Shown in pieces: positions 24,344 to 57,926 of a stretch of 64,000 nucleotides of DNA. Under the pieces are notes generated by a model. It had not been told where the DNA came from. It worked only from the letters and a program-made list of their open reading frames with translations, and did no database searches. Origin of the DNA: an uncultured Eubacteriales bacterium (GTDB lineage: Bacteria > Bacillota > Clostridia > RGIG6154); contig CAZBJD010000001.1 of NCBI GenBank assembly GCA_964492155.1, positions 5,729 through 69,728 on the forward strand, written 5' to 3'. The stretch's first letter is position 1. Each line of letters begins with the position of its first letter. The position numbers and the translations under genes are program-made.

Positions 24344-24763
24344 TTGGATAAAATAAAATATATTAAAACAAGTGACTATAAAATTTCAGAACGCATTAAT
24401 TTAAGAAAAATTATAAAAAATGTCTTTTGGGGACTTTTTGCGGTAGGTGTATTATTGCTGTTATGTTCAATAATTTTTACTTATACTGATTTTGACGCAA
24501 AATATATCTCAATCGTTGCCAAAGTTATTCTATATCTTGGGGCAACATCGGTTGGTATTTTCTCAAGCTTAAAGGCAAAAAGTAACGGCTGGCTTATGGG
24601 CGGAACATCAAGTGCAATTTATATAGTAATTTTGGCAATAATCAGATTAATATTTTGTCCGGGCAAAACAATCGATGCTTCTGTGTTAATTTCTTTGGTT
24701 GGCACAATATTCTTTGGTGTGCTTGGAGGAATATTAGGTATAAATCTTAAATTAAAAAAATAA
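24344..24763 (+). CDS. Small four-transmembrane-helix membrane protein, possibly TIGR04086-like.
   Basis: TTG start lying inside a T-tract. Hydrophobic profile only. Confidence 0.35.
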   Translation: MDKIKYIKTSDYKISERINLRKIIKNVFWGLFAVGVLLLLCSIIFTYTDFDAKYISIVAKVILYLGATSVGIFSSLKAKSNGWLMGGTSSAIYIVILAIIRLIFCPGKTIDASVLISLVGTIFFGVLGGILGINLKLKK

Positions 24764-24796
24764 GAAAGTCGCACATTGTGACTTTCTTATTTTTTT
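24762..24796 (+). terminator. Intrinsic terminator.
   Basis: Stem aagaaagtc/gactttctt followed by T8. Confidence 0.65.
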
Positions 24797-24830: not shown

Positions 24831-24859
24831 TTGAATTGTGGAATGTTATATGTTATAAT
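24831..24859 (+). promoter_or_regulatory. SigmaA promoter for ireB.
   Basis: TTGAAT - 17 nt - TATAAT. Confidence 0.45.
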
Positions 24860-24889: not shown

Positions 24890-25141
24890 ATGAATCAAAA
24901 TGAAACTGTAAAATTTAAAGTAACAAAAGATACAAAAGACAGAGCCAGAGAAATTATGAATACTGTTTATGACGCATTAAAAGAAAAAGGTTATAATCCT
25001 GTTAATCAAATTGTCGGCTATTTTCTTTCGGGTGACCCATCGTATATAACAGGTCATCAAAACGCACGTGCTATTATTACAAAGCTTGAACGTGATGAGT
25101 TGCTTGAAGAAATTGTTAAGTATTATATTGCTGAGGAATAA
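24890..25141 (+). CDS. ireB: IreB/UPF0297-family regulatory protein.
   Basis: …[20 protein letters not shown]…, close to B. subtilis YrzL. Confidence 0.8.
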
Positions 25142-25149
25142 TACATTTT

Positions 25150-26682
25150 ATGTTAAATAAATCTATCAAAACTGTGTCCGGTATGTTCATCATAATGATG
25201 TTCGCAAAAATTTTAGGACAAGTTCGTGAAATAATGCTTGCCGGATATTATGGAACAGGTGCTGAAGCATCAGCATTTTTAACTGCGTCGCAAATACCTT
25301 TAAATTTCTTTGATATGATTTTGGGACTTGCGATTGTATCTGCCTTTGTTCCTGTTTTTAATGAATATTACCAAAAATACGGAAAAGATGAGGCTAATTC
25401 TTTTGCCAATAACTTCATTGGCGTTGTATTGTTGATTTCGGTAGTTATATCGCTTTTAGGAGTTGGTTTCTCCCGTAATCTTGTTGGATTGTTGGCTAAT
25501 GGATTTGATACAGATACTGTTGTTTTGACATCCCGATTGCTGAAAATAATGTTTCCTTCACTTATTTTCACTGCATTAGCTTATTCCTATGCCGGAATTG
25601 TTCAATCATACGGCGAGTTCAAGATTCCTGCGGCCATGAGCATTGCATCGAATCTCGTAGCAATATTGTACTTTTTAATTTTTAACAAAAACAGCGGTAT
25701 CTATGGATTAGCATTTGCGATGCTTTTTGGATGGGGATTACAACTGCTGATTTTATTGCCATCACTATTTAAGTTTAATTATAAATTTGGACTTAAATTT
25801 AACTTTTGGCATCCCGGAATGAAAAAAGTGTATAAACTCGCACTTCCTATTCTTTTGAGTTCGTGGGTTCAGCCGCTTAATGTGATGGTAAATTTATATC
25901 TTGCCTCATTTATTGATGGTGGTAATGCAGTTAGTTACATCAATTACGCTAATAAATTATATCTGATAATCGTTGGCGTATTTACCATGTCGGTAACTAA
26001 TCTTATTCTGCCGGAACTTTCAAGGTTGTTTGCTGCCAACAGGAATACAGACTGTGCCGGTGTAATTACCGCTTCGCTAAAAGCTACGATAATTTTTATT
26101 ACACCAATTATGTTGCTGTTTTTGGCATTTTCCCGCCCAATTGTGGAAGTTATATATATGCGAGGTGCTTTTGACACCGAGTCTGTACGTATGACTTCGA
26201 TAGCATTGTTTTTCTACAGTTTTGGTATGCTGGGTTACGGACTGCAGGAAGTATTGAATAAAAGCTTTTATTCAATGCAAAATTCTGTTGTCCCAATGAA
26301 AAATGCACTTTTTACAATAACCGTAAATATTGTTTTAAGTTTCTTGCTCTATGAAAAAGCAGGTGTTGCGGGATTGGCTTTGTCATCTGCATTTGCAGCG
26401 ATATGCAGTGCTGTCAATCTTATTCATAAGATTAAGAGAGCTGTACCATTGATTGACGTAAAATCGAATGTAATATTGTTGATAAAAACTTTAACTTCAT
26501 CAGCAATATCAGTCGTTGTTGCAAGAATTGTTTATACGGCACTTGAAGGTTTTATCAATGGTTTCCTGATAAAATTTGTTATTCTTGCTTTATGTGTGTT
26601 ATGTGCGTTATTAATATATTTTGTTCTTTTAGTTTTGATGCGTGTTAAGGACATTAGTAATTTGATTAAGAAAGGGGAGTAG
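25150..26682 (+). CDS. murJ: Lipid II flippase MurJ (MviN).
   Basis: 510 aa, 14 transmembrane helices, MurJ N-terminal signature. Confidence 0.85.
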   Translation: MLNKSIKTVSGMFIIMMFAKILGQVREIMLAGYYGTGAEASAFLTASQIPLNFFDMILGLAIVSAFVPVFNEYYQKYGKDEANSFANNFIGVVLLISVVISLLGVGFSRNLVGLLANGFDTDTVVLTSRLLKIMFPSLIFTALAYSYAGIVQSYGEFKIPAAMSIASNLVAILYFLIFNKNSGIYGLAFAMLFGWGLQLLILLPSLFKFNYKFGLKFNFWHPGMKKVYKLALPILLSSWVQPLNVMVNLYLASFIDGGNAVSYINYANKLYLIIVGVFTMSVTNLILPELSRLFAANRNTDCAGVITASLKATIIFITPIMLLFLAFSRPIVEVIYMRGAFDTESVRMTSIALFFYSFGMLGYGLQEVLNKSFYSMQNSVVPMKNALFTITVNIVLSFLLYEKAGVAGLALSSAFAAICSAVNLIHKIKRAVPLIDVKSNVILLIKTLTSSAISVVVARIVYTALEGFINGFLIKFVILALCVLCALLIYFVLLVLMRVKDISNLIKKGE

Positions 26683-26685
26683 ATT

Positions 26686-28563
26686 GTGACTGTCAAATCA
26701 ATAATAATCACTTTGTTCATAAAAGCATACACTGCAATTGGCAGCTTGATTCAAAAAAGTGCCATATGGCATTTTCTTACAACATTGAATGATAAATTCA
26801 ATGAAAAAGTGAAATCCAGTGCCATAGTTTATGCGTTTTCTGCACATGACAAGTTTGATGATGATTACTCGAAGTGTAAGCGATATGACATATCTATATT
26901 GGATAGATTTGCAAATAAAATATTTGCTTCGATAAGAGAGTTTTTAGATAAAAGTGCTATTATTACTTATTTTTCTAACTTGTGTGCTGATTTAATTAGT
27001 GTACCATTAGTATTCCCGGGAATTGTGCTGACTCTATGGGGTGGAATTGGGATTATTGGTTCTTTTCTTAAGAATGCCGGTACAGTTGCCACTTTGATTT
27101 GTGCTGCACTTCTTACTATTGGAGTTGTGTTGGCTATAGCAGGGCACAGTATTGTTACAACGCTTAACAATTCTTTTACTATTAGATATATACTTAAAAA
27201 GTTTCATATTGCTGTTCCTGACGATAAGCCCTTGAAAAACATATATAATTATGGGTCGTATGCTTTTGTCGGTGCGTTGCTTGGCATCTCAACGCTTATT
27301 TTCGGTTTGATACCTACCGCTTTGGTTATAATCTTGATAATTGCAACCGTAATATTCTTTAGATATACGGTTTTTGCAGCATGGTTGTACGTTTGTATCC
27401 TGCCATTTATGCCGACAATGGCGATGGTTTTGTACGGGATTGCTTTATTTGGCAGTGTTGTTGTCAAATGTTGCTTGGGATATAAAAACAATTTATTCGC
27501 GGACAAGTATGCCTTTAATATGTTGTTGCTGTTTATGGGGATTTCCTTTGCAATTGCAGCTATGTTTTCTTTTGCAAAAGCATCAAGCGTTAAGATTGCT
27601 ATGGTGTATATAGCATTTTTGTGTTCAAGTTATGCTTTGGTTAAATTGTTTTCTACCAAAAAAGTTATCGTTTCGGTTTTAAATGGAATTTCTGCTTTTT
27701 CCTTGCCTGTATCATTGTTTGGTATTTACCAACATTTTAGTGGGTTTGATAATCAAAATACATGGATTGATACCGAGATGTTTGATGAGATTTCAGGTCG
27801 TGTCGTGTCCTTCTTTGGCAATCCGAATGTTTTTGGTGAATATCTTATTCTTGTTATAATTACATCTGCCGTTTGCTTCTTTATTTCAAAAAATATGTAT
27901 GCAAAAATTATACATTTAGCAGCGGTTGCTTTTTCCGGTGTAGCTTTGGTTTTCACATATTCGCGCGGTTGCTGGATTGGGTTGATTTTTGCAGTTGTGA
28001 TTTTCCTTTTTATGAGCAAGCGTAAAATGTTTGCAGTTTTTTGCATCCTTGGACTTGCTTCAATATTCTTTTTACCGGATAGTATAATATCCAGAATAAC
28101 TAGTGTCGGCAACTTAGCTGACAGTTCCACGTCCTACAGAGTTTATATTTGGGAAGGCACAATCAATATGTTAAAAGATTTTTGGATTACGGGAATTGGG
28201 CTTGGCTCTGATGCTTTTAATTCAATATATCCGCTGTATGCCTATTCAGCTATTACTGCACCACATCCGCACAATCTGTACCTCGTTATTTTGACAGAAA
28301 CCGGCATTGTTGGTGCTGTGGCCTTCATTTTGATTATTATATTCTATTATAAACGACTATTTTCAATTGTAAGGAGTTCAAATGATGCAACCCTGAAAAC
28401 TATAGCTTCAGGTTTGATTGCAGCCATAAGCGGCTATTTACTGCAAGGTATGTTTGATAACGTTTGGTACAACTACAGAGTTTTTCTTATGTTTTGGATA
28501 TATATAGCTATCGGATTAGCCGTTGACATTGTTGCAAGGAGGAAGTTAGATGGGAAAAATTAA
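26686..28563 (+). CDS. O-antigen-ligase-like polytopic membrane protein (Wzy_C family).
   Basis: GTG start after AAAGGGGAG. Wzy_C core around …YSRGCWIGL…. 625 aa. Confidence 0.65.
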   Translation: MTVKSIIITLFIKAYTAIGSLIQKSAIWHFLTTLNDKFNEKVKSSAIVYAFSAHDKFDDDYSKCKRYDISILDRFANKIFASIREFLDKSAIITYFSNLCADLISVPLVFPGIVLTLWGGIGIIGSFLKNAGTVATLICAALLTIGVVLAIAGHSIVTTLNNSFTIRYILKKFHIAVPDDKPLKNIYNYGSYAFVGALLGISTLIFGLIPTALVIILIIATVIFFRYTVFAAWLYVCILPFMPTMAMVLYGIALFGSVVVKCCLGYKNNLFADKYAFNMLLLFMGISFAIAAMFSFAKASSVKIAMVYIAFLCSSYALVKLFSTKKVIVSVLNGISAFSLPVSLFGIYQHFSGFDNQNTWIDTEMFDEISGRVVSFFGNPNVFGEYLILVIITSAVCFFISKNMYAKIIHLAAVAFSGVALVFTYSRGCWIGLIFAVVIFLFMSKRKMFAVFCILGLASIFFLPDSIISRITSVGNLADSSTSYRVYIWEGTINMLKDFWITGIGLGSDAFNSIYPLYAYSAITAPHPHNLYLVILTETGIVGAVAFILIIIFYYKRLFSIVRSSNDATLKTIASGLIAAISGYLLQGMFDNVWYNYRVFLMFWIYIAIGLAVDIVARRKLDGKN

Positions 28564-29668
28564 GGTTATAAATGTTTCCAGTGATCATAATATTGGTGGC
28601 GCGGGACGTTGTATATTGACATTTTTGCAACATTACGACAGAGAATTGTTTGATATAAGCGTTGTTCTTCCTAAAGGCAGCGAATTAATTCCGCATATTG
28701 AATTGACAAAGACAAGAATAATTGAAGTTGATGGACTTGAAAACCAATCTTTTTCGAAAGTTGGCGTTAAGGAATTATATCAGGTTTTTAAAACCGAAAA
28801 ACCTGACGTTGTTCACACTCACGCAAGTTTCTCTGCGAGAATTGCCGCTAAAATTTGCGGGATTCCTGTTGTCTATACAAGGCATAGCGTTTTTCCTAAT
28901 TCACCAAAAGTTACAAAAGGCATTGGCAAAATGGTAAACGGTTTTGCAAACAACATTACATCAAATCGAATTATAGCTGTTGCACAAGCTGCAATGGATA
29001 ATCTCACAGAGGCAGGGGTATCTTCAAAAAAAATTACTGTTATTAAAAATGGCGTTAAACCTGTTGCCAGATACACAGAATCTGAACTGGCTAAAGCACG
29101 TGATTTTTTTGGTTTAGATAGCGAATTCGTTTTTGCGATGGTTGCGCGCGTCGAAGATATCAAAGGACATGATTTTTTCATTGATGCTGCAAAGAACATT
29201 GTTAAGGATTACAACAATGTTAAGTTTATGATATGCGGTACAGGCGGGTATCTCGAACATATTAAAGAACGAATTGCTTCAGAAAAAATGGAGGAGCATA
29301 TTATTGTTACGGGGCATATAAAAGATGTCACTTCAGTTATGAATGTTATTGATGTCAACGTTAATGCTTCTTTTGGAACTGAAGCAACAAGTTTATCGTT
29401 GCTCGAGGGAATGAGTGTTAGCAAGCCTATCATTGCGTCTGATTACGGCGGAAATCCTGAATTAGTTGTTGATGGAGTCAATGGCTTGTTGTTTAAAAGT
29501 AAGGACAGTCTTGCTCTCGAAAAGTGTATGAGAAAAGTTTTAGATGATAAAGCATTATACACTTCTCTGTCTGAAGGGGCTGAAAAACTATATAACCAAA
29601 AATATACTGCAAGCATTAATGCACAGCATATACAAGATGTGTATACTTCATTAGTCAGGAGGAAATAG
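28550..29668 (+). CDS. GT4-family glycosyltransferase.
   Basis: EGMSVSKPIIASDYGGNPELVVDGVNG: the E-X7-E region of retaining GT-B enzymes. Confidence 0.85.
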   Translation: MGKIKVINVSSDHNIGGAGRCILTFLQHYDRELFDISVVLPKGSELIPHIELTKTRIIEVDGLENQSFSKVGVKELYQVFKTEKPDVVHTHASFSARIAAKICGIPVVYTRHSVFPNSPKVTKGIGKMVNGFANNITSNRIIAVAQAAMDNLTEAGVSSKKITVIKNGVKPVARYTESELAKARDFFGLDSEFVFAMVARVEDIKGHDFFIDAAKNIVKDYNNVKFMICGTGGYLEHIKERIASEKMEEHIIVTGHIKDVTSVMNVIDVNVNASFGTEATSLSLLEGMSVSKPIIASDYGGNPELVVDGVNGLLFKSKDSLALEKCMRKVLDDKALYTSLSEGAEKLYNQKYTASINAQHIQDVYTSLVRRK

Positions 29669-29669
29669 T

Positions 29670-30140
29670 ATGAAAATAAATAAAATTAAATTTAATATCA
29701 TTGATATTCTTATAATATTAGTCATATTAGCAATTGTTGCTTTGGGATATGTATATATCAACGGTAAAGCCGTGGATTCGAATTCTTCCGATTTCACTTA
29801 TGATATTTTATTCAAAGAGGTCACGGCTGAGTTTGCTGATGCTATTCAACCCGGTGCCGCAATTTTTGACGGCATTAAAATTATTGAAATTGGTAATATT
29901 TCTGATTATAGTGAAAAAGATGCCGTCAGATATGAATTCAGCAGTCAAGCAGGCGAATATGTTGAAACTTCTATTCCGGGCAAATATGACGTAACAGTGA
30001 CGGTTTCTGCCGCAGGAAATTGCGATGAATTAGCATGCTTTGTCAATGATTATGAAGTGTATATCGGAAAAACAGTTGATGTAAAAAGTGCTGGTCTGGT
30101 TGGACATGGTGTTGTTGTAGCAATTAACGAGGTGGAATGA
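29670..30140 (+). CDS. Membrane-anchored protein of unknown function, possibly DUF4330-like.
   Basis: N-terminal KFNIIDILIILVILAIV transmembrane anchor. Paralogous to the next gene. Confidence 0.5.
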   Translation: MKINKIKFNIIDILIILVILAIVALGYVYINGKAVDSNSSDFTYDILFKEVTAEFADAIQPGAAIFDGIKIIEIGNISDYSEKDAVRYEFSSQAGEYVETSIPGKYDVTVTVSAAGNCDELACFVNDYEVYIGKTVDVKSAGLVGHGVVVAINEVE

Positions 30141-30141
30141 A

Positions 30142-30603
30142 ATGAAAAAGAAATTTAATATTGTAGATGTAATAATTGCTGTGTTTGTTATTGCTGTTGT
30201 AGTGTTTTTGGTTCAAAAATTTTCCCAGACCTCGGTTTTAAGAAACGAGACTGACGGTTCTTTGGATGTTATATACACTTTAAAAGTCAGTGAACTTATG
30301 AACATAACCGCCGATGCTGTCCCTTCTTCCGGAAAGCTGTATGACGACGAAGGGAATTTCCTCGGTACAATATCAGATAAAAAAATAGCTAATGCAGAAG
30401 TGCTTAAACTCAAAGCTGATGGACAATATACTAAAGTAACAAACCCCGATAAATTTGATGTATATCTTACTGTTGAGTCTAAAGCCACGTTGAAAGATGA
30501 GGGGTATTTCTTAAACGGAAAGAAGAACATTGGTGTAGGCAGCGTTCTGAAGGTAAGAGGCTCTAAAATTGAATTCGAAGCATATGTTGTTGAAATTAGC
30601 TGA
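30142..30603 (+). CDS. Paralog of the preceding gene.
   Basis: KFNIVDVIIAVFVIAVV anchor. Shared KYDV/KFDV and C-terminal GxVGxG blocks. Confidence 0.5.
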   Translation: MKKKFNIVDVIIAVFVIAVVVFLVQKFSQTSVLRNETDGSLDVIYTLKVSELMNITADAVPSSGKLYDDEGNFLGTISDKKIANAEVLKLKADGQYTKVTNPDKFDVYLTVESKATLKDEGYFLNGKKNIGVGSVLKVRGSKIEFEAYVVEIS

Positions 30604-30630
30604 TAATTACACACTCACTAGGTGAATATA

Positions 30631-30673
30631 AAAAAGCAGACACATGTAAAGTCAACATGTATCTGCTTTTTTC
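30631..30673 (+). terminator. Intrinsic terminator of the envelope gene cluster.
   Basis: aagcagacacatg/catgtatctgctt followed by T6. Confidence 0.6.
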
Positions 30674-30745
30674 TTTGAGCGTTAGTATATATGAAGTTCG
30701 CCACGACGTGGAAGAACGATATAATTTTACTGTGAGTGATAACTG

Positions 30746-30786
30746 AAAAAGAGATAATCTTACCGACAGCAAAATTATCTCTTTTT
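30746..30786 (-). terminator. Hairpin 3 nt downstream of tRNA-Arg(CCT). Terminator or processing structure.
   Basis: 13-bp perfect stem aaaaagagataat/attatctcttttt with a 15-nt loop. Symmetric, so it can act bidirectionally. Confidence 0.5.
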
Positions 30787-30788
30787 CA

Positions 30789-30865
30789 TGGCGCACCCAA
30801 AGGGATTCGAACCCCCGACCTGCGGTTTAGGAAACCGTCGCTCTATCCTGCTGAGCTATGGATGC
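30789..30865 (-). tRNA. tRNA-Arg, anticodon CCT.
   Basis: 77 nt cloverleaf with encoded CCA, D-arm GCTCAG…GGATAGAGC, loop TT-CCT-AA. Confidence 0.65.
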
Positions 30866-30947: not shown

Positions 30948-31024
30948 TGGAGCGCCCGATGGGATTCGAACCCACTACCTTCAGAGTCGGAGTCTGATAC
31001 TCTATCCAAGTGAGCTACGGACGC
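30948..31024 (-). tRNA. tRNA-Arg, anticodon CCG.
   Basis: 77 nt with encoded CCA. Anticodon stem TCAGA/TCTGA, loop CT-CCG-AC. Confidence 0.75.
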
Positions 31025-31069: not shown

Positions 31070-31768
31070 TTACTCTATTAATTTGCTGATTTCGTTTTTT
31101 AATCTTAAAATTATTCTTTTTTCTAGACGAGAAATGTAGGATTGTGATATCCCTAACATATCTGCCACTTCTTTTTGGGTTTTTTCATCTTCGTTTTTCA
31201 ACCCAAAACGTAGTTGCATAATTGTCTTTTCTCGTGCAGAAAGTCTTTCAATTGCTTGTGCCAGTAATTCTTTATCGGTTTCATCATCCAGTGATTTTTG
31301 TATCATATCAACATCTGAGCCAAGTATGTCCGATAATAGTAATTCATTGCCGTCACTGTCTGTGTTTAATGGTTCATCTATAGAGATTTCCTGGCGTTGT
31401 GAGCTTACTTTTCTTAAATGCATTAATATTTCATTTTCAATACATCTTGATGCATAAGTAGCCAGCTTAATATTTTTATCCGGATTGAAAGTGTTAATTG
31501 CCTTTATCAGTCCTATCGTTCCGATTGATATTAAATCTTCGATATTAATCCCTGTATTTTCAAACTTTTTCGCTATGTATACTACAAGTCTTAGATTATG
31601 CTCGATTAATATTTTTTTCACCTTATCGTCGCCAATGCTTTGCAAAAGCGTCTTTTCGGTTTCTTTGTCAAGTGGTGCCGGTAAATTTTCACACCCACCG
31701 ATATAAAAAATGTTTTGCTCGTCGCAGAAAAATATTTTCTTCAAATATTCCAATAATGATTTAAACAT
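31070..31768 (-). CDS. sigE: Pro-sigma-E, the early mother-cell sigma factor.
   Basis: Colinear with B. subtilis SigE ([18 protein letters not shown]…[38 protein letters not shown]…[14 protein letters not shown]). Starts 8 nt inside the spoIIGA end. Confidence 0.9.
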
Positions 31769-32579
31769 ATAAATTCTCCGTTTCTGTATTTTTTGAATTT
31801 AGATTATCAGTAAATATATCTTCAGTTAATAACAAATCATAATCATTATTAAACTCAAAGTCGCTTATGCCTATCATAGCCTGTATACTTCTGCTTTCTA
31901 CCATAATATTATCTGGCTTAAATACTTTAATTTTCCCTATCCCGGATACAGTTCGACATTCCATTGTTTTTGTGTATTCAATATCAGGGATTTTGCTGAG
32001 AATTCCACTTGTGGCTACAAATATCGGACACATATTTTCGTAATCATACATGGTATTTCCACTATCACAAAATCCAATTAAATTGATGGTTGTGCTACTA
32101 TAGAAAATAGTGACTGCTTTATAATTCTCCGGATTCTTAAGTTGCCGCGATAAAAATTTACGAATAATCAATATCAAAAGCAGCATCATAGCTACCGATA
32201 AAAGCACACCCGCACCGGATACATATGAATAATTGACACCATTTATGCTTATAGTCTCTGTAATGGTATTAATAGATAACACTATACCCGCCAACATATA
32301 TGAATATAAATAATATACACAAACAAACTTGATTTTTAATTTGTAGCTACCCTTGAATAAAATTATTGCAATCAAAAATATCACTGCGAATTTTGCAGGT
32401 ACTATGTAAAATTTGCTGAACATTATGAATACTGACAGAAAACTGCTCACAACAGATGCAATAATTATCTTGTATAATTTAACCGCAATTTTGCTTGTAA
32501 ATAAACTTAGAGTCATAATTAAAAAGTTAAAAAAGATATTGATTAATATATATATATCTAAATACAGTACTGTGTTCAA
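31761..32579 (-). CDS. spoIIGA: Sigma-E processing peptidase SpoIIGA.
   Basis: Polytopic N-terminal region plus the DSG aspartic-protease motif (GFCDSGNT). Directly upstream of sigE. Confidence 0.8.
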
Positions 32580-32607
32580 TTTAAATCACCCTATCTATGT
32601 TGACATA

Positions 32608-32657
32608 ATTATATCATACATATTAAGCTGATTTTGTCAGTTTTACCGAGGTGACAA
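32608..32657 (-). promoter_or_regulatory. Candidate spoIIG promoter and inverted repeat.
   Basis: On the minus strand: cTGACA - 21 nt - TGaTATAAT, a long spacer as in B. subtilis spoIIG. TTGTCA/TGACAA 6-bp inverted repeat at 32634-32657. Confidence 0.3.
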
Positions 32658-33587
32658 AATTTCTTTAATATTTGAAATAGTTGTCCCCGGATAATACTTA
32701 TCCAAAATTTCCAAATAACTCATCCCGATTTTTGCATATTCATTTGCACCGGACTGACTCATACCAACGCCATGACCATATCCAATCACATCAAATATAA
32801 CATTATCAGAATTTTGAGTTATGGTGAAATTCGCCGAACGTAAATTGAGCTTTTGCCGCACGTCTTTACCATCGTAATTTTCTCCAAAAATCTTAATTTC
32901 TTTAACAGAACCGCCTGCAGTCCGAGATAAAATTTTAATATCGTCACTATTATCACCAGAACCAAAAATATCTTTAAGCTCAGGAACTGAATAGTCAACT
33001 GAACTATGATAACCATTAACCGCTTTATCTAAGTTGCTTTCAACATTTGTAAGGTAGGGGAGTTGCTTAACCCAAACATCGGATGATTTTTCGGTAATAC
33101 CCGAAGATATGGCATGAAACACCGCGAGGATTGGTTCGCCTTCATAAGTTAATATTTGATTTTTTGTTTGAGATACTAATAAAGATATCCTTTCACAGAT
33201 TTTGTCTTTTTCTTCCCCGAAACTATTTGTTTCTTCGCCCGGTATCATAAAAGCAGTACAATGGTTAAAATCTGTGCATACGTCTGCACCTTTATGTTCA
33301 GGTATCTGTACGCCGATTTTTCGTGCGGCATAGGTTCGCACTGCAACTGCTTGAGCTTTCAATGCATCATCTGAAAAAGTATTAGGCATTTCCTTTGCCG
33401 TAGCTCTCCACACATATTCTTCAAGCGGCATTTTAACAATGCTGTTGGTTGTAGTTTGGAGTACACTTATAATAATATTACTCTCTGTGACATTATCTCT
33501 TTTTTTATCATCACATAAATGTATAGCTATAGGTGTTATAACTATACATAAAATGCAACAAAGAAATATCAAACTTGCATTTTTCAT
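32643..33587 (-). CDS. spoIID: Stage II sporulation protein D (lytic transglycosylase).
   Basis: SpoIID/LytB domain: …LKAQAVAVRTYA…GYGHGVGMSQSGA…. Confidence 0.85.
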   Translation of the reverse strand: MKNASLIFLCCILCIVITPIAIHLCDDKKRDNVTESNIIISVLQTTTNSIVKMPLEEYVWRATAKEMPNTFSDDALKAQAVAVRTYAARKIGVQIPEHKGADVCTDFNHCTAFMIPGEETNSFGEEKDKICERISLLVSQTKNQILTYEGEPILAVFHAISSGITEKSSDVWVKQLPYLTNVESNLDKAVNGYHSSVDYSVPELKDIFGSGDNSDDIKILSRTAGGSVKEIKIFGENYDGKDVRQKLNLRSANFTITQNSDNVIFDVIGYGHGVGMSQSGANEYAKIGMSYLEILDKYYPGTTISNIKEILSPR

Positions 33588-56338: not shown

Positions 56339-57310
56339 ATGGGGTTTAATATATCAGAACAACCATTGGTTTACAAAGAGTTTCTTATGTATATGCAAAC
56401 CATACGCGGTAAATCAATTGGTACAATTTCCGAATACGCATTAGATTTAAATATCTTTTTTAAATTTATGGTTCGTCATTTTGATACATCTGTATCATCT
56501 GAAATTGATGAAATTGACATCAGTAATCTTAACTACGATTTCGTAAAAAAAATTCAACTCACAGACATCTACGAATATCTTTCTTATATGAACACTGTCA
56601 GAAAAAATTCTGCTGCAACGCGTGCTCGCAAAGTTGCATGTTTGAGAAGCTATTTTAAGTATATGCATAGCAAAGCGAAATATATCAATGATAATCCAAC
56701 AAAAGAATTGGAATCTCCAAAGCTTAAGCAATCGCTGCCTAATTATCTGACTTTAGAGGAATCCAAAACTTTGTTGGAAACCGTTTTGAAAAACTCAAAT
56801 GGATATCGTGACTATGCGATTATTACCTTATTTCTCAATTGCGGAATGCGGTTGTCTGAGTTAGTTGGAATTAACTTGACTGATATTAAAAATGACACAT
56901 TAATTGTCACAGGTAAAGGCAACAAAGAACGAACAATATATTTAAACAACGCTTGCATTCAGGCAATCGCAAAATATTTAAAAGAGCGACCCGTGGATAA
57001 CGTTAAAGATAAAAATGCTTTATTTTTAAGTGCTCGTAACCAAAGAATAAGTAACAAGACTGTCCAGCATCTTGTAAAAAAATATTTACAGCTTGCAGGG
57101 CTTGATACAACACGCTTTTCTACTCACAAACTCAGACATACTGCAGCTACATTAATGTATCGTGAAGGAAATACCGATTTGCGGACACTGCAAGAAATCT
57201 TAGGTCATGAACACCTATCAACCACGCAGATATATACACATGTTAACGATCGGCAACAAAAAAATGCTATGGAAAATAACCCATTAGCAAATATAGTCAC
57301 AACTGAATAA
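56339..57310 (+). CDS. Tyrosine site-specific recombinase (XerC/XerD-like).
   Basis: Catalytic R…HKLRHTAAT…LGHEHLSTTQIYTHV (R-H-R-Y pattern). N-terminal SAM-like domain. Confidence 0.8.
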   Translation: MGFNISEQPLVYKEFLMYMQTIRGKSIGTISEYALDLNIFFKFMVRHFDTSVSSEIDEIDISNLNYDFVKKIQLTDIYEYLSYMNTVRKNSAATRARKVACLRSYFKYMHSKAKYINDNPTKELESPKLKQSLPNYLTLEESKTLLETVLKNSNGYRDYAIITLFLNCGMRLSELVGINLTDIKNDTLIVTGKGNKERTIYLNNACIQAIAKYLKERPVDNVKDKNALFLSARNQRISNKTVQHLVKKYLQLAGLDTTRFSTHKLRHTAATLMYREGNTDLRTLQEILGHEHLSTTQIYTHVNDRQQKNAMENNPLANIVTTE

Positions 57311-57313
57311 ATC

Positions 57314-57349
57314 AAGGAGATGATTTTTATAGTCATCTCCCTTTTTTTC
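57314..57349. terminator. Bidirectional intrinsic terminator between the recombinase and amidase genes.
   Basis: ggagatga/tcatctcc stem followed by T7. Confidence 0.65.
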
Positions 57350-57353
57350 AGGG

Positions 57354-57926
57354 CTACAATCGATTGTATCCAAAGAAATTCAATATGCCGTCGTAAATTG
57401 CAGCTGCAAATTCATATTGGTCATTTTTAAGTTTTTCTGCATCTCCCGGATTAGTTATAAATGCAAGCTCAATTAACATTGCCGGCATTTGTGTCCTTCT
57501 CAACACGAAAAATGTTTTATTAATTTTAACACCATTGTTCTTAGTTCCAAGTTGAGTGGTGATTTGTGTTAAAATGTTTTCTGCCATATAATAAATCGGT
57601 GTTCCTTCGCTATATACATATATTTCTGTACCGTTAAATACAGGATTTTCAGCAGCGTTAGCGTGTATACTGATAAAGTAGTCCGCCCCCCAGGAATTCG
57701 CCATATTGACTCTTTCTTGAAGACTGCTTGTATTGTTATATCCCAACGAATCTGTAGGTGTATTTCTTGATGTTATTGCATCAAACCGATAATCACTGTT
57801 AAGTAAATCTCTTAAAAAAATACCGACATTGTATGTTACATCTTGTTCTCTGAGCCCGTTACCTTCTGCGCCGGCATTAACATTTTCAGGATTATGCCCC
57901 TGATCAATAAAAATTTTAATTGCCAT
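57354..57926 (-). CDS. N-acetylmuramoyl-L-alanine amidase (Amidase_3), CwlD-like.
   Basis: …IFIDQGHNP…ISIHANA… Zn-ligand blocks. Start at MAIKIF after GGGAGAG (the ORF track extends to 57968). Confidence 0.75.
   Translation of the reverse strand: MAIKIFIDQGHNPENVNAGAEGNGLREQDVTYNVGIFLRDLLNSDYRFDAITSRNTPTDSLGYNNTSSLQERVNMANSWGADYFISIHANAAENPVFNGTEIYVYSEGTPIYYMAENILTQITTQLGTKNNGVKINKTFFVLRRTQMPAMLIELAFITNPGDAEKLKNDQYEFAAAIYDGILNFFGYNRL

What the first reader, a model, noticed from the sequence alone, without database searches (positions are those of the whole stretch)
29670..30603. Tandem paralogous membrane-anchored proteins closing a MurJ - Wzy_C-ligase - GT4 envelope cluster
Two adjacent ORFs of 156 and 153 aa share an N-terminal KFNI(I/V)D(I/V)… transmembrane anchor and conserved C-terminal blocks (KYDVTVTV/KFDVYLTV; GKTVDVKSAGLVGHG/GVGSVLKVRGSKIEF). 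They are diverged overall, indicating an old duplication. They are likely DUF4330-type proteins of unknown function.

They end an apparent operon: murJ, a 625-aa O-antigen-ligase-like protein, a GT4 transferase, then these two. The overlaps are MurJ/ligase 3 nt and ligase/GT4 14 nt. This suggests a dedicated surface glycopolymer export and ligation system with two uncharacterised accessory components.
Basis: partly seen in the sequence, partly recalled or inferred. Interest (0 to 1): 0.5.

Follow-up and report, generated by a model that had tools for sequence, protein, structure and literature searches.

The report
Paired membrane-anchored partners of a glycan ligase
Two small neighbouring genes encode an anciently duplicated pair of membrane-anchored proteins of unknown function (DUF4330) that, in every related genome examined, sit beside one particular cell-envelope sugar-polymer enzyme, so they are very probably its so-far unstudied helper subunits.

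Summary
ORFs 29670-30140 and 30142-30603 are both DUF4330 (PF14221) proteins and are 25% identical to each other. Each is predicted with high confidence to have one N-terminal TM helix, a short linker and a small extracytoplasmic all-beta domain.

They end an inferred six-gene transcription unit: ireB, murJ, an IctB-like Wzy_C protein, a GT4, then DUF4330-A and DUF4330-B.

- Anchored on the Wzy_C gene, 61 of 61 evaluable species loci carry DUF4330 next to it, and 60 of 61 carry two copies.
- Anchored on DUF4330, 29 of 29 metagenome loci and 12 of 12 look-ups carry the Wzy_C gene.
- This holds despite different flanking genes, permuted gene order and 28-66% GC.

The two copies are separate ancient orthologous classes. 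Natural fusions exist (GT4 + class 1; class 1 + class 2 behind one TM helix).

Only a membrane-embedded Asp and some glycines are conserved, so the proteins are probably non-catalytic. No solved structure or paper explains them.

Best reading: a heteromeric accessory unit of an IctB-like ligase/polymerase that builds a conserved cell-wall glycopolymer. The main rival is that they are the enzyme's glycosylation substrates. The biochemistry is untested.

The parts
24755..24795 (+). Intrinsic terminator hairpin ending the upstream DUF3792 gene; this is the upstream boundary of the unit
   Evidence: Perfect 19-bp stem followed by a U-run, -20.5 kcal/mol, z=-8.66; sequence
24831..24859 (+). Sigma-70-like promoter (TTGAAT-17-TATAAT with TG extension), the inferred operon promoter
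   Evidence: Consensus scan, 10 of 12 matches plus TG. Consensus match only, not proven.
24890..25141 (+). ireB (IreB/ReoM-type regulatory phosphoprotein), probable first gene of the operon
   Evidence: PF06135, 127 bits. 8-nt gap to murJ. An ireB homologue lies directly upstream of murJ in 27 of 54 species loci and in L001, L097 and L099.
25150..26682 (+). murJ, a MOP-family lipid-linked-glycan flippase
   Evidence: PF03023, 286 bits; TIGR01695, 341 bits, above the 235 cut-off. Immediately upstream of the ligase gene in 61 of 63 species loci.
26686..28563 (+). IctB-like Wzy_C-family polytopic membrane protein (glycan ligase or polymerase), the constant genomic partner of DUF4330
   Evidence: PF04932, 86.5 bits. 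Best NCBIfam hit is TIGR00947 IctB, 178 bits over model positions 28-418 of 425, below the 366 cut-off. About 13-14 hydrophobic segments. Conserved loop 472-533 with R485, H527, H529 and the motif H-N-x9-G-x-x-G at 529. The only solved relative is WaaL 7TPG, E=2e-6.
28550..29668 (+). GT4 retaining-type glycosyltransferase (cytoplasmic)
   Evidence: PF00534, PF13439 and PF13692. 41% identical over its full length to the GT4 part of the natural GT4-DUF4330 fusion P0123. Lies between the ligase and DUF4330 genes in 47 of 61 species loci.
29670..30140 (+). DUF4330 paralog A (class 1): N-in single-pass TM anchor (about residues 10-31), linker, extracytoplasmic all-beta domain
   Evidence: PF14221, 64 bits. 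AlphaFold pLDDT 90.4. Belongs to the class of position-1 copies. Invariant Asp12 at the cytoplasmic end of the TM helix.
30142..30603 (+). DUF4330 paralog B (class 2): same architecture (TM helix about residues 7-28)
   Evidence: PF14221, 72.5 bits. AlphaFold pLDDT 88.1. Belongs to the class of position-2 copies. Invariant Asp9.
30630..30672 (+). Intrinsic terminator hairpin plus U-run closing the operon
   Evidence: -23.1 kcal/mol, z=-4.35, 0 of 200 shuffles fold as well; sequence

Best explanation
The two ORFs are the class-1 and class-2 members of an anciently duplicated DUF4330 pair. Each is a bitopic protein: the N-terminus is in the cytoplasm, one TM helix carries an invariant Asp near its cytoplasmic end, and a small non-catalytic beta-barrel-like domain is tethered to the outer face of the membrane by a short Ser/Thr-rich linker.

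I propose that the two ectodomains act together, most likely as a heterodimer, as a dedicated accessory unit of the adjacent IctB-like Wzy_C enzyme.

Proposed pathway:
1. A lipid-linked glycan is built in the cytoplasm (the GT4 adds one sugar).
2. The MurJ-type flippase flips it across the membrane.
3. The Wzy_C protein polymerises it or ligates it to its acceptor on the outer face.
4. The DUF4330 pair holds or positions the donor chain or the acceptor, or stabilises the enzyme. This is loosely comparable to what a co-polymerase does for Wzy.
5. On the cytoplasmic side, the class-1 N-terminus may keep the GT4 at the complex.

The product is most likely a conserved cell-wall glycopolymer (a secondary cell-wall polymer or an LTA-like lipoglycan) rather than a variable O-antigen-like capsule.

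Shown: family membership, topology and fold prediction, the strict gene linkage, the ancient two-class duplication, and the fusions.

Inferred: physical complex formation, heterodimerisation, the non-catalytic helper role, and the nature of the polymer.
For: 1. Strict two-way gene linkage despite variable context. 61 of 61 species loci anchored on the ligase have DUF4330. 29 of 29 evaluable metagenome loci anchored on DUF4330 have the ligase, as do 12 of 12 look-ups. Flanking genes differ. Gene order is permuted (LIG-GT4-DUF-DUF, LIG-DUF-DUF, GT4-DUF-LIG, DUF-LIG-GT4, GT4-LIG-DUF-DUF) across 28-66% GC.

2. Rosetta-stone fusions. P0123 is GT4 + TM + a class-1 domain; its cluster has 122 members on contigs up to 125 kb. 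About 13 of the top 150 representatives have one TM helix followed by a class-1 and then a class-2 domain. One protein has four domains.

3. Both classes have been retained side by side in 60 of 61 species, with much higher within-class than between-class similarity (about 60-72 bits against about 27 bits). This points to non-redundant, cooperating roles.

4. Both are confidently modelled as TM helix + disordered linker + all-beta domain (pLDDT 88 and 90). Lys residues precede the TM helix, and the internal TM segment in the GT4 fusion fixes the N-in/C-out orientation.

5. Only the TM Asp (100%) and some glycines are conserved. There is no conserved catalytic-type residue.

6. Tight translational coupling (1-nt gaps, strong RBSs) inside one terminator-bounded unit.

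7. Cell-wall context. ireB, murT-gatD and dcw genes lie nearby. In some loci there are pyruvyl-transferase, WecG/TagA, LtaS-type sulfatase-family and SLH-domain genes. Wzy_C-clan proteins already have roles in Gram-positive LTA ligation (TacL, PMC5727136) and in SCWP assembly (WpaA/WpaB, PMC6030368).
Against: - There is no direct evidence of physical interaction. A multimer prediction could not be run.
- The mirror-tree test was not discriminating: partial r of DUF to ligase was only 0.26-0.31, similar to DUF to GT4.
- The invariant Asp lies at the cytoplasmic end of the helix, far from the extracytoplasmic catalytic loop of Wzy_C, so its role is unclear. It is also lost from the class-2 part of the two-domain fusions.
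- 14 of 61 loci lack any GT, and the cluster holds no initiating phosphoglycosyl transferase, so the polymer and even the class of substrate are unknown.
- Adjacency and an S/T-rich linker fit the substrate model equally well.
Confidence: 0.55

Rival explanations
1. The DUF4330 proteins are the dedicated acceptor substrates of the Wzy_C protein, which would then be an O-oligosaccharyltransferase. The enzyme would transfer the flipped glycan onto Ser/Thr in the membrane-proximal linker of the two anchored proteins, producing membrane-tethered glycoproteins.
For: Cognate substrates of TfpO, TfpM and PglS O-OTases are often encoded next to the enzyme (PMC12645811). The linker just outside the membrane is disordered and enriched in Ser+Thr (21-23% against 12-13% for the whole protein). 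The ectodomain has no catalytic-type conservation. The flippase + GT + Wzy_C set is also what an O-OTase pathway needs.
Against: No Ser or Thr position is conserved in either class. The partner lacks the PglL_A and Wzy_C_2 domains that mark PglL/PglS-type O-OTases, although TfpO and TfpM lack them too. Fusion of a supposed substrate to the cytoplasmic GT4 and the strict retention of two ancient classes plus an invariant intramembrane Asp are more typical of machinery than of cargo.
Confidence: 0.17
2. The DUF4330 proteins are mainly membrane anchors and organisers that couple the two sides of the membrane. The class-1 N-terminus would recruit the otherwise soluble GT4 to the flippase/ligase site, with the ectodomain serving only as a spacer or wall contact.
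For: In the GT4 + class-1 fusion only about 10 residues separate the GT4 C-terminus from the conserved ...INVLD... TM start. The invariant Asp and the conserved K-F-N-x-x-D motif lie at the cytoplasmic interface. The GT4 gene is immediately upstream of the class-1 gene in 47 of 61 loci.
Against: 14 of 61 species loci have both DUF4330 genes but no GT4, whereas the Wzy_C gene is never missing. The well-folded ectodomain is retained in every form, including two- and four-domain proteins. A mere anchor would not need it.
Confidence: 0.12
3. The DUF4330 proteins are MlaD/MCE-like or MreC-like factors: single-pass proteins whose beta-barrel domains handle the lipid carrier or lipid-linked intermediate, or scaffold peptidoglycan enzymes. 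They would link MurJ-dependent lipid II flux to the Wzy_C enzyme.
Confidence: 0.08
4. The adjacency is inherited synteny without functional coupling, and DUF4330 does something unrelated to the glycan enzymes.
For: All sampled genomes that carry a source name are Clostridia/Bacillota, so some shared ancestry of gene order is expected. The closest relative (L001) shares the flanking genes too.
Against: Flanks differ: ireB is upstream in 27 of 54 loci, trmD/rimM in 12 of 54 and something else in 15 of 54, and the downstream neighbour is unmatched in 44 of 57. Gene order within the module is permuted. The cassette is duplicated within one locus (L098). Gene fusions with the GT4 exist. Linkage is 100% in both directions.
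Confidence: 0.03

Closest known systems
Pfam PF14221 (DUF4330)
   Same: Both ORFs are bona fide members (64 and 72 bits against a cut-off of 27.6). They share the family's N-terminal ...(F/S)-(N/I)-I-x-D + TM signature and an all-beta domain of about 125 aa.
   Different: The family has no assigned function and no paper in the searchable literature. The window carries the two-gene (class 1 + class 2) form with a short K-F-N-I-x-D N-terminus. The canonical single-copy form begins MIIDKKGKLFGKxSIID.
Wzx/Wzy/Wzz-dependent glycan assembly (flippase, polymerase, polysaccharide co-polymerase)
   Same: A MOP-family flippase (MurJ), a Wzy_C-domain polytopic protein and a small extracytoplasmic membrane-anchored partner are encoded together, plus a cytoplasmic GT.
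   Different: Wzz-type co-polymerases have two TM helices and a long helical periplasmic domain (my own knowledge). DUF4330 has one TM helix and a small beta domain. The cluster holds no initiating transferase and has one GT or none. The locus is conserved and core-genomic rather than hypervariable.
WaaL O-antigen ligase and TacL lipoteichoic-acid ligase (Wzy_C family)
   Same: The partner enzyme has the Wzy_C domain, a large conserved outer loop with Arg and His residues, and the H[NSQ]x9Gxx[GTY] motif (the motif is recalled from the WaaL literature). Its only solved relative is a WaaL (7TPG). TacL shows that a Wzy_C protein can ligate a flipped teichoic-acid chain to a glycolipid in a Gram-positive (PMC5727136).
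   Different: The similarity is weak (E=2e-6 to 7TPG). No WaaL/RfaL model reaches its threshold. The protein is about 200 aa longer than WaaL or TacL (397-419 aa; PMC5727136). To my knowledge neither WaaL nor TacL has a DUF4330-type partner.
IctB (TIGR00947), the conserved cyanobacterial Wzy/WaaL-like membrane protein of unknown function
   Same: IctB is the best NCBIfam match for the window protein and for 7 of 7 other DUF4330-partnered Wzy_C proteins, aligned over nearly the whole model (103-178 bits). IctB is likewise a conserved, core, apparently essential Wzy_C protein whose real function is unknown (PMC4594306, PMC9366323).
   Different: All scores are well below the equivalog cut-off of 366 bits. 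The organisms are Clostridia, not cyanobacteria. Whether cyanobacterial IctB has a DUF4330 neighbour could not be tested here.
O-oligosaccharyltransferase and substrate gene pairs (TfpO-PilA, PglS-ComP)
   Same: A Wzy_C-type enzyme is encoded next to small proteins with an N-terminal hydrophobic segment (PMC12645811).
   Different: DUF4330 is not pilin-like. The window proteins have no Gly before the hydrophobic segment and no Glu at +5 (read directly from the sequences). There is no conserved acceptor Ser/Thr and no PglL_A or Wzy_C_2 domain.
WpaA/WpaB of Bacillus anthracis (Wzy/WaaL-clan proteins implicated in secondary cell-wall polysaccharide assembly)
   Same: These are Gram-positive, Wzy/WaaL-clan membrane proteins proposed to polymerise or ligate a flipped SCWP precursor (PMC6030368). 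Some DUF4330 cassettes sit beside pyruvyl-transferase, WecG/TagA and SLH genes typical of SCWP systems.
   Different: WpaA/WpaB belong to a different Pfam family (PF13425, per PMC6030368). No activity has been shown for them, and no DUF4330 partner has been reported.
MlaD/MCE-domain proteins and MreC
   Different: No sequence relationship (0 of 104 members match the MlaD or MreC models). The structural scores are at the level of unrelated barrels.

Membership tests
Pfam PF14221 DUF4330 | Score above the Pfam gathering threshold over most of the model | tested here: met
   A: 64.3 bits, model positions 13-166 of 167. B: 72.5 bits, positions 12-166 of 167. Cut-off 27.6.
Pfam PF14221 DUF4330 | N-terminal single TM segment carrying the family's invariant Asp | tested here: met
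   The hydropathy peak is 3.0 at residues 10-28 (A) and 6-24 (B). Asp is the only invariant residue besides Gly across 104-121 members, and it is 100% conserved in both classes.
Pfam PF14221 DUF4330 | C-terminal all-beta domain of about 115-125 aa | tested here: met
   AlphaFold models have pLDDT 88.1 (B) and 90.4 (A), with the same order of strands.
Wzx/Wzy-dependent glycopolymer assembly system | MOP-superfamily flippase encoded in the locus | tested here: met
   MurJ: PF03023, 286 bits; TIGR01695, 341 bits, above the 235 cut-off. Whether it flips lipid II or another lipid-linked glycan cannot be told from sequence.
Wzx/Wzy-dependent glycopolymer assembly system | Wzy_C-domain polytopic membrane protein | tested here: met
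   PF04932, 86.5 bits. About 13-14 hydrophobic segments and a conserved outer loop.
Wzx/Wzy-dependent glycopolymer assembly system | Initiating phosphoglycosyl transferase and several GTs in the same locus | tested here: not met
   The operon holds only one GT (GT4) and no initiating transferase. 14 of 61 related loci hold no GT at all. The rest of the window was not fully annotated.
Wzx/Wzy-dependent glycopolymer assembly system | Wzz-type co-polymerase (two TM helices, large helical periplasmic domain) | tested here: not met
   None is present in the cluster. DUF4330 has one TM helix and a small beta domain, so it could only be a functional analogue, not a member.
WaaL/TacL-type glycan ligase | Wzy_C domain with conserved outer-loop His/Arg and the H[NSQ]x9Gxx[GTY] motif | tested here: met
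   The motif HNLYLVILTETGIVG starts at residue 529. R485, H527 and H529 are invariant among 8 partners. The motif definition is recalled from the literature, not retrieved here.
WaaL/TacL-type glycan ligase | Match to a curated ligase model above threshold | tested here: not met
   No RfaL/WaaL model reaches its cut-off. The best is 31-43 bits against a 277 cut-off in two relatives, and there is none for the window protein.
WaaL/TacL-type glycan ligase | Transfer of an Und-PP-linked glycan to a lipid acceptor | not testable with these tools
   This needs biochemistry or genetics.
IctB family (TIGR00947) | Score above the equivalog cut-off (366.4 bits) | tested here: not met
   178 bits for the window protein and 103-174 bits for seven other partners. 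It is therefore IctB-like, not IctB.
IctB family (TIGR00947) | Alignment across essentially the whole model | tested here: met
   Model positions 28-418 of 425 are matched by residues 234-609. Coverage is similar in all seven relatives.
O-oligosaccharyltransferase + cognate substrate pair | PglL_A and/or Wzy_C_2 domains in the enzyme | tested here: not met
   Only Wzy_C is found in the window protein and in seven relatives. TfpO and TfpM also lack these domains (PMC12645811), so this does not exclude the class.
O-oligosaccharyltransferase + cognate substrate pair | A conserved acceptor Ser/Thr in the neighbouring protein | tested here: not met
   No Ser/Thr column reaches 80% in either class. 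The linker is only compositionally S/T-rich.
MCE (MlaD) / MreC | Sequence match to PF02470 or PF04085, or a strong structural match | tested here: not met

The most novel reading that the evidence does not exclude
IctB-like Wzy_C proteins together with DUF4330 partners form a previously unrecognised, conserved core cell-envelope machine of Clostridia, often operon-linked to ireB and murJ. The DUF4330 pair would be an obligatory new kind of subunit for a Wzy_C-family enzyme. Because the enzyme is the closest non-cyanobacterial relative of IctB, working out this module would also reveal what the long-enigmatic, apparently essential cyanobacterial IctB really does.
Probability: 0.25. Interest if true: 0.7.

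Novelty: new variant of a known kind. Interest (0 to 1): 0.5.

Why it matters
Wzy_C-family enzymes (WaaL, Wzy, TacL, O-OTases) build major bacterial surface structures, yet no small single-pass beta-domain partner has been described for any of them, as far as the searches here and my own knowledge go.

Here an uncharacterised Pfam family turns out to be linked one-to-one with a specific IctB-like Wzy_C subfamily, in both directions. The linkage holds in every evaluable case among the 80 best of 377 matching species genomes and among 77 metagenome loci. It comes with an ancient two-class duplication and natural fusions that point to a multi-subunit complex.

That gives DUF4330 (about 2,100 clusters at 50% identity) a concrete, testable role in cell-wall glycopolymer assembly in abundant but mostly uncultured gut and rumen Clostridia.

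It may also give an experimental handle on IctB. That protein has been used for two decades in crop-engineering attempts while its native function remains unknown.

Tried and rejected
I used a 4-sequence ligase alignment and the canonical-N-terminus DUF4330 subgroup instead.
- AFDB50 was not available, so the family's taxonomic range beyond named Clostridia/Bacillota, and in particular cyanobacteria, could not be seen.
- The DUF4330 profile has no sequence match in the PDB.
- The mirror-tree partial correlations with MurJ as phylogeny proxy were positive but weak and not discriminating. DUF4330 distances are near saturation.
- A pilin-like prepeptide reading of the N-terminus was rejected by direct inspection: no Gly(-1) or Glu(+5) arrangement.
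- A cleavable signal peptide was rejected: the hydrophobic stretch is about 20 residues long, and the same segment is an internal TM helix in the GT4 fusion.
- A sporulation or spore-envelope role suggested by the neighbouring sigE/spoIIGA/spoIID was rejected. These genes are convergent, lie beyond a terminator and two tRNA genes, and are not linked to the module in other lineages.
- The literature search for DUF4330/PF14221 returned nothing.
- No Rfam element other than the two tRNAs lies in or around the operon.
- The GT4 could not be assigned a specific substrate. Its best curated hits are far below their cut-offs, and its nearest solved relative is Alr3699 at E=5e-18.
Full report

Yes. The two ORFs lie exactly where stated (29670-30140, 156 aa; 30142-30603, 153 aa). 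They are separated by one base, and each is preceded by a strong ribosome-binding site. They are 25% identical over 154 residues (E=4e-7). Both pass the Pfam gathering threshold for PF14221 (DUF4330) over nearly the whole model (64 and 72.5 bits against 27.6). Each has a single, very hydrophobic N-terminal segment preceded by lysines.

Two details needed correction:
- murJ and the ligase gene are separated by a 3-nt gap rather than overlapping.
- The transcription unit probably starts one gene earlier, at ireB. A perfect terminator hairpin closes the preceding DUF3792 gene (z=-8.7). A TG-extended sigma-70-like promoter follows it. ireB is only 8 nt from murJ.

A second terminator hairpin follows paralog B (z=-4.35). 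Beyond it lie two tRNA-Arg genes and the convergent sigE-spoIIGA-spoIID genes.

**2. What the proteins look like.**

With family alignments, AlphaFold models both paralogs confidently (mean pLDDT 88.1 and 90.4, above 90 in the soluble domain). Both have the same architecture: one TM helix, a short low-confidence linker and an all-beta domain with the same strand order. The positive charges before the helix place the beta domain outside the cell. The natural fusion with a cytoplasmic GT4 (below) supports this orientation.

Across 104-121 diverse family members, the only invariant positions are an Asp at the cytoplasmic end of the TM helix and two or three glycines. Within each paralog class the picture is the same. 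No conserved His, Cys, Ser or acidic residue is present in the ectodomain, and no fixed Ser/Thr position. So the domain is very unlikely to be an enzyme.

**3. The family and its fusions.**

An exhaustive profile search found 2,119 cluster representatives at E<=1e-3. Where a source gives a name, they are Clostridia/Bacillota MAGs. Three kinds of natural fusion are informative:
- P0123 is a complete GT4 (41% identical to the window's GT4, E=5e-99), followed by the conserved ...INVLD... TM segment and a DUF4330 domain. Its 90% cluster has 122 members on many contigs of up to 125 kb, so it is not an assembly artefact.
- About 13 of the top 150 representatives are roughly 290-aa proteins with one TM helix and two DUF4330 domains.
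- One protein has four domains.

**4.

Twelve context look-ups on progressively more divergent family members all placed DUF4330 next to a Wzy_C gene. These covered at least eight different flanking contexts and several gene orders. One locus (L098) holds two complete GT4-DUF4330-Wzy_C cassettes beside an LtaS-type sulfatase-family gene, a pyruvyl transferase and a WecG/TagA-type gene.

I then anchored a scan of species-representative genomes on the Wzy_C partner. 377 species encode a relative, and the best 80 loci were fetched. All are uncultured gut or rumen Clostridia, and the closest is only 59% identical to the window protein. I annotated them with my own HMMs:

| Measure | Result |
|---|---|
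| DUF4330 downstream of the ligase gene (loci with at least 2.7 kb downstream) | 61 of 61 |
| Two DUF4330 copies | 60 of 61 |
| GT4 between the ligase and DUF4330 genes | 47 of 61 |
| No GT4 | 14 of 61 |
| MurJ immediately upstream | 61 of 63 |

Flanks vary. Upstream is ireB in 27 of 54 loci, trmD/rimM in 12 of 54 and something else in 15 of 54. Downstream, 44 of 57 loci match none of my probes.

The reverse test anchored on the canonical DUF4330 subgroup in metagenomes. It gave 77 loci, of which 29 were evaluable, and all 29 have the IctB-like Wzy_C gene adjacent. One locus was flagged by my script only because its ligase gene lies between two DUF4330 genes.

The module spans 28-66% GC and its internal gene order is permuted. 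The linkage is therefore functional, not inherited synteny. Its constant core is Wzy_C + DUF4330, while GT4 and MurJ are frequent additions.

**5. The duplication is ancient and ordered.**

Among 67 tandem pairs, position-1 copies find another position-1 copy as best hit in 66 of 67 cases, and position-2 copies in 67 of 67. Mean scores are about 60 and 72 bits within classes against about 27 bits between them.

The window's A is class 1 and B is class 2. The two-domain fusions are class 1 followed by class 2. The GT4 fusion carries class 1, matching the usual GT4-then-class-1 gene order. The single-copy form is closer to class 2.

Retention of both classes side by side, and their repeated fusion into one polypeptide, indicates that the two ectodomains work together.

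**6. The partner enzyme.**

The 625-aa protein and seven other DUF4330-partnered Wzy_C proteins all have the cyanobacterial IctB family (TIGR00947) as best NCBIfam hit. The match covers nearly the full model but scores well below the equivalog cut-off (103-178 bits against 366). None has the PglL_A or Wzy_C_2 domains.

The eight partners share invariant residues in a large loop (R485, H527, H529, a G-x-G-x-G stretch). They also share a motif that matches the WaaL-type H[NSQ]x9Gxx[GTY] pattern, which I recall from the WaaL literature. The only solved relative is the Cupriavidus WaaL 7TPG, at E=2e-6.

IctB itself is a near-universal cyanobacterial Wzy/WaaL-like protein for which fully segregated mutants could not be isolated (PMC4594306). 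It is not a bicarbonate transporter, and its function remains unknown (PMC9366323).

**7. How it most likely works.**

In Gram-positives, Wzy_C-clan proteins are known or proposed to act on flipped, lipid-linked polymers. TacL ligates teichoic-acid chains to a glycolipid (PMC5727136). WpaA/WpaB are implicated in SCWP polymerisation or ligation (PMC6030368).

The window's unit (ireB, murJ, IctB-like Wzy_C, GT4, DUF4330-A/B) fits a compact pathway: a cytoplasmic sugar addition, flipping, then extracytoplasmic ligation or polymerisation.

Three things point to a conserved wall-associated polymer rather than a variable capsule:
- The locus sits in the core genome among peptidoglycan genes.
- It contains few GTs.
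- In some lineages it is associated with pyruvyl-transferase, TagA and SLH genes.

Within this scheme I assign DUF4330-A/B the role of a heteromeric, non-catalytic accessory unit of the Wzy_C enzyme, anchored beside it in the membrane (confidence 0.55). The linkage, the duplication history, the topology and the fusions are shown. The complex, its stoichiometry and what it binds are inferred.

**8. Rivals.**

- Substrate model (0.17). DUF4330 proteins would be the dedicated acceptors of an O-OTase. This is a real alternative, because such substrates are often encoded next to the enzyme (PMC12645811) and the linker is S/T-enriched. Against it: no acceptor position is conserved, the GT4 fusion exists, and the two-class retention and invariant intramembrane Asp look like machinery.
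- Anchor for the GT4 (0.12). This explains the fusion and the cytoplasmic-side motif. It does not explain the 14 of 61 loci without a GT4, or the conserved ectodomain.
- Mere synteny (0.03). Effectively excluded.

**9. Novelty and limits.**

The proteins belong to a catalogued but uncharacterised Pfam family. No paper mentions it.

What is new is the strict partnership with an IctB-like Wzy_C subfamily, the ancient class-1/class-2 pair and the fusions. Together these define a new accessory component for a known kind of glycan-assembly system.

What I could not do:
- predict or test complexes;
- determine the polymer;
- decide whether the linked murJ is the housekeeping flippase.

The mirror-tree test was inconclusive.

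Noticed in passing
window 30789-30865 (-) and 30948-31024 (-): Two tRNA-Arg genes (anticodons CCT and CCG) lie between the operon's terminator and sigE. Each is preceded by a very good sigma-70-like promoter: 12 of 12 consensus matches at 30905-30877 and 11 of 12 at 31065-31037.
   Followed up: partly
window 31070-33587 (-): sigE (232 aa), spoIIGA (272 aa, overlapping sigE by 8 nt) and spoIID (314 aa) are convergent with the envelope operon, which marks the organism as an endospore former. This adjacency is seen only in the window's own lineage (L001-L004), not in other carriers of the module.
   Followed up: partly
window about 56500-57500: GC skew changes sign (positive to negative) at the point where gene orientation switches from the + strand to the - strand. 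This is compatible with a replication terminus. The B. subtilis dif sequence (from memory), with up to 3 mismatches allowed, was not found.
   Followed up: partly
L098 5099-16507: Two complete GT4-DUF4330-Wzy_C cassettes lie side by side in one genome. They are next to an LtaS-type sulfatase-family gene, a PemK toxin gene, a pyruvyl transferase (PS_pyruv_trans) and a WecG/TagA-type transferase, which is a typical secondary cell-wall polymer gene set. The 181-aa ORF after the second cassette's DUF4330 gene has no Pfam hit and may be a diverged second copy.
   Followed up: partly
L097 3239-10556; L099 590-6433; window 24890-25141: ireB (the IreB/ReoM regulatory phosphoprotein of cell-wall synthesis) is directly upstream of murJ in 27 of 54 species loci. 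In L097 the module is followed directly by murT-gatD (lipid II amidation). This suggests the module is co-regulated with peptidoglycan precursor supply.
   Followed up: partly
P0148 (535 aa); P0091 (260 aa); P0093 (332 aa): Unusual family architectures. P0148 has one TM helix followed by four tandem DUF4330 domains, two of them nearly identical. P0091 has an acidic extension of about 100 aa at the C-terminus. P0093 has a degenerate N-terminal half of a GT4 fused to DUF4330, which looks like a decayed version of the P0123 fusion.
   Followed up: no
L001 10601-10989, compared with window 30604-30788: The closest relatives carry two small Phage_holin_4_1 genes between DUF4330-B and the tRNA genes. 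The window has no such genes there, only the terminator and non-coding sequence.
   Followed up: no
P0190: One DUF4330 family member is named 'formylmethanofuran dehydrogenase subunit A' by its JGI source. This is almost certainly a misannotation, since it is a 161-aa protein with a full PF14221 match.
   Followed up: no
window 26686-27400 (residues 1-230 of the Wzy_C protein): The Wzy_C partner has an N-terminal extension of about 230 aa with extra hydrophobic segments and no Pfam match. The extension is shorter by about 100 aa or more in the 453-536-aa partners, which are found mostly in GT4-DUF-Wzy_C loci. Its role is unknown.
   Followed up: no
L016-L095: The DUF4330 proteins evolve roughly twice as fast as the enzymes they accompany. 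Mean Kimura distance is 1.6-1.7, against 0.74 for the GT4, 0.90 for MurJ and 1.24 for the ligase-like protein. This is typical of exposed, non-catalytic extracytoplasmic proteins.
   Followed up: partly
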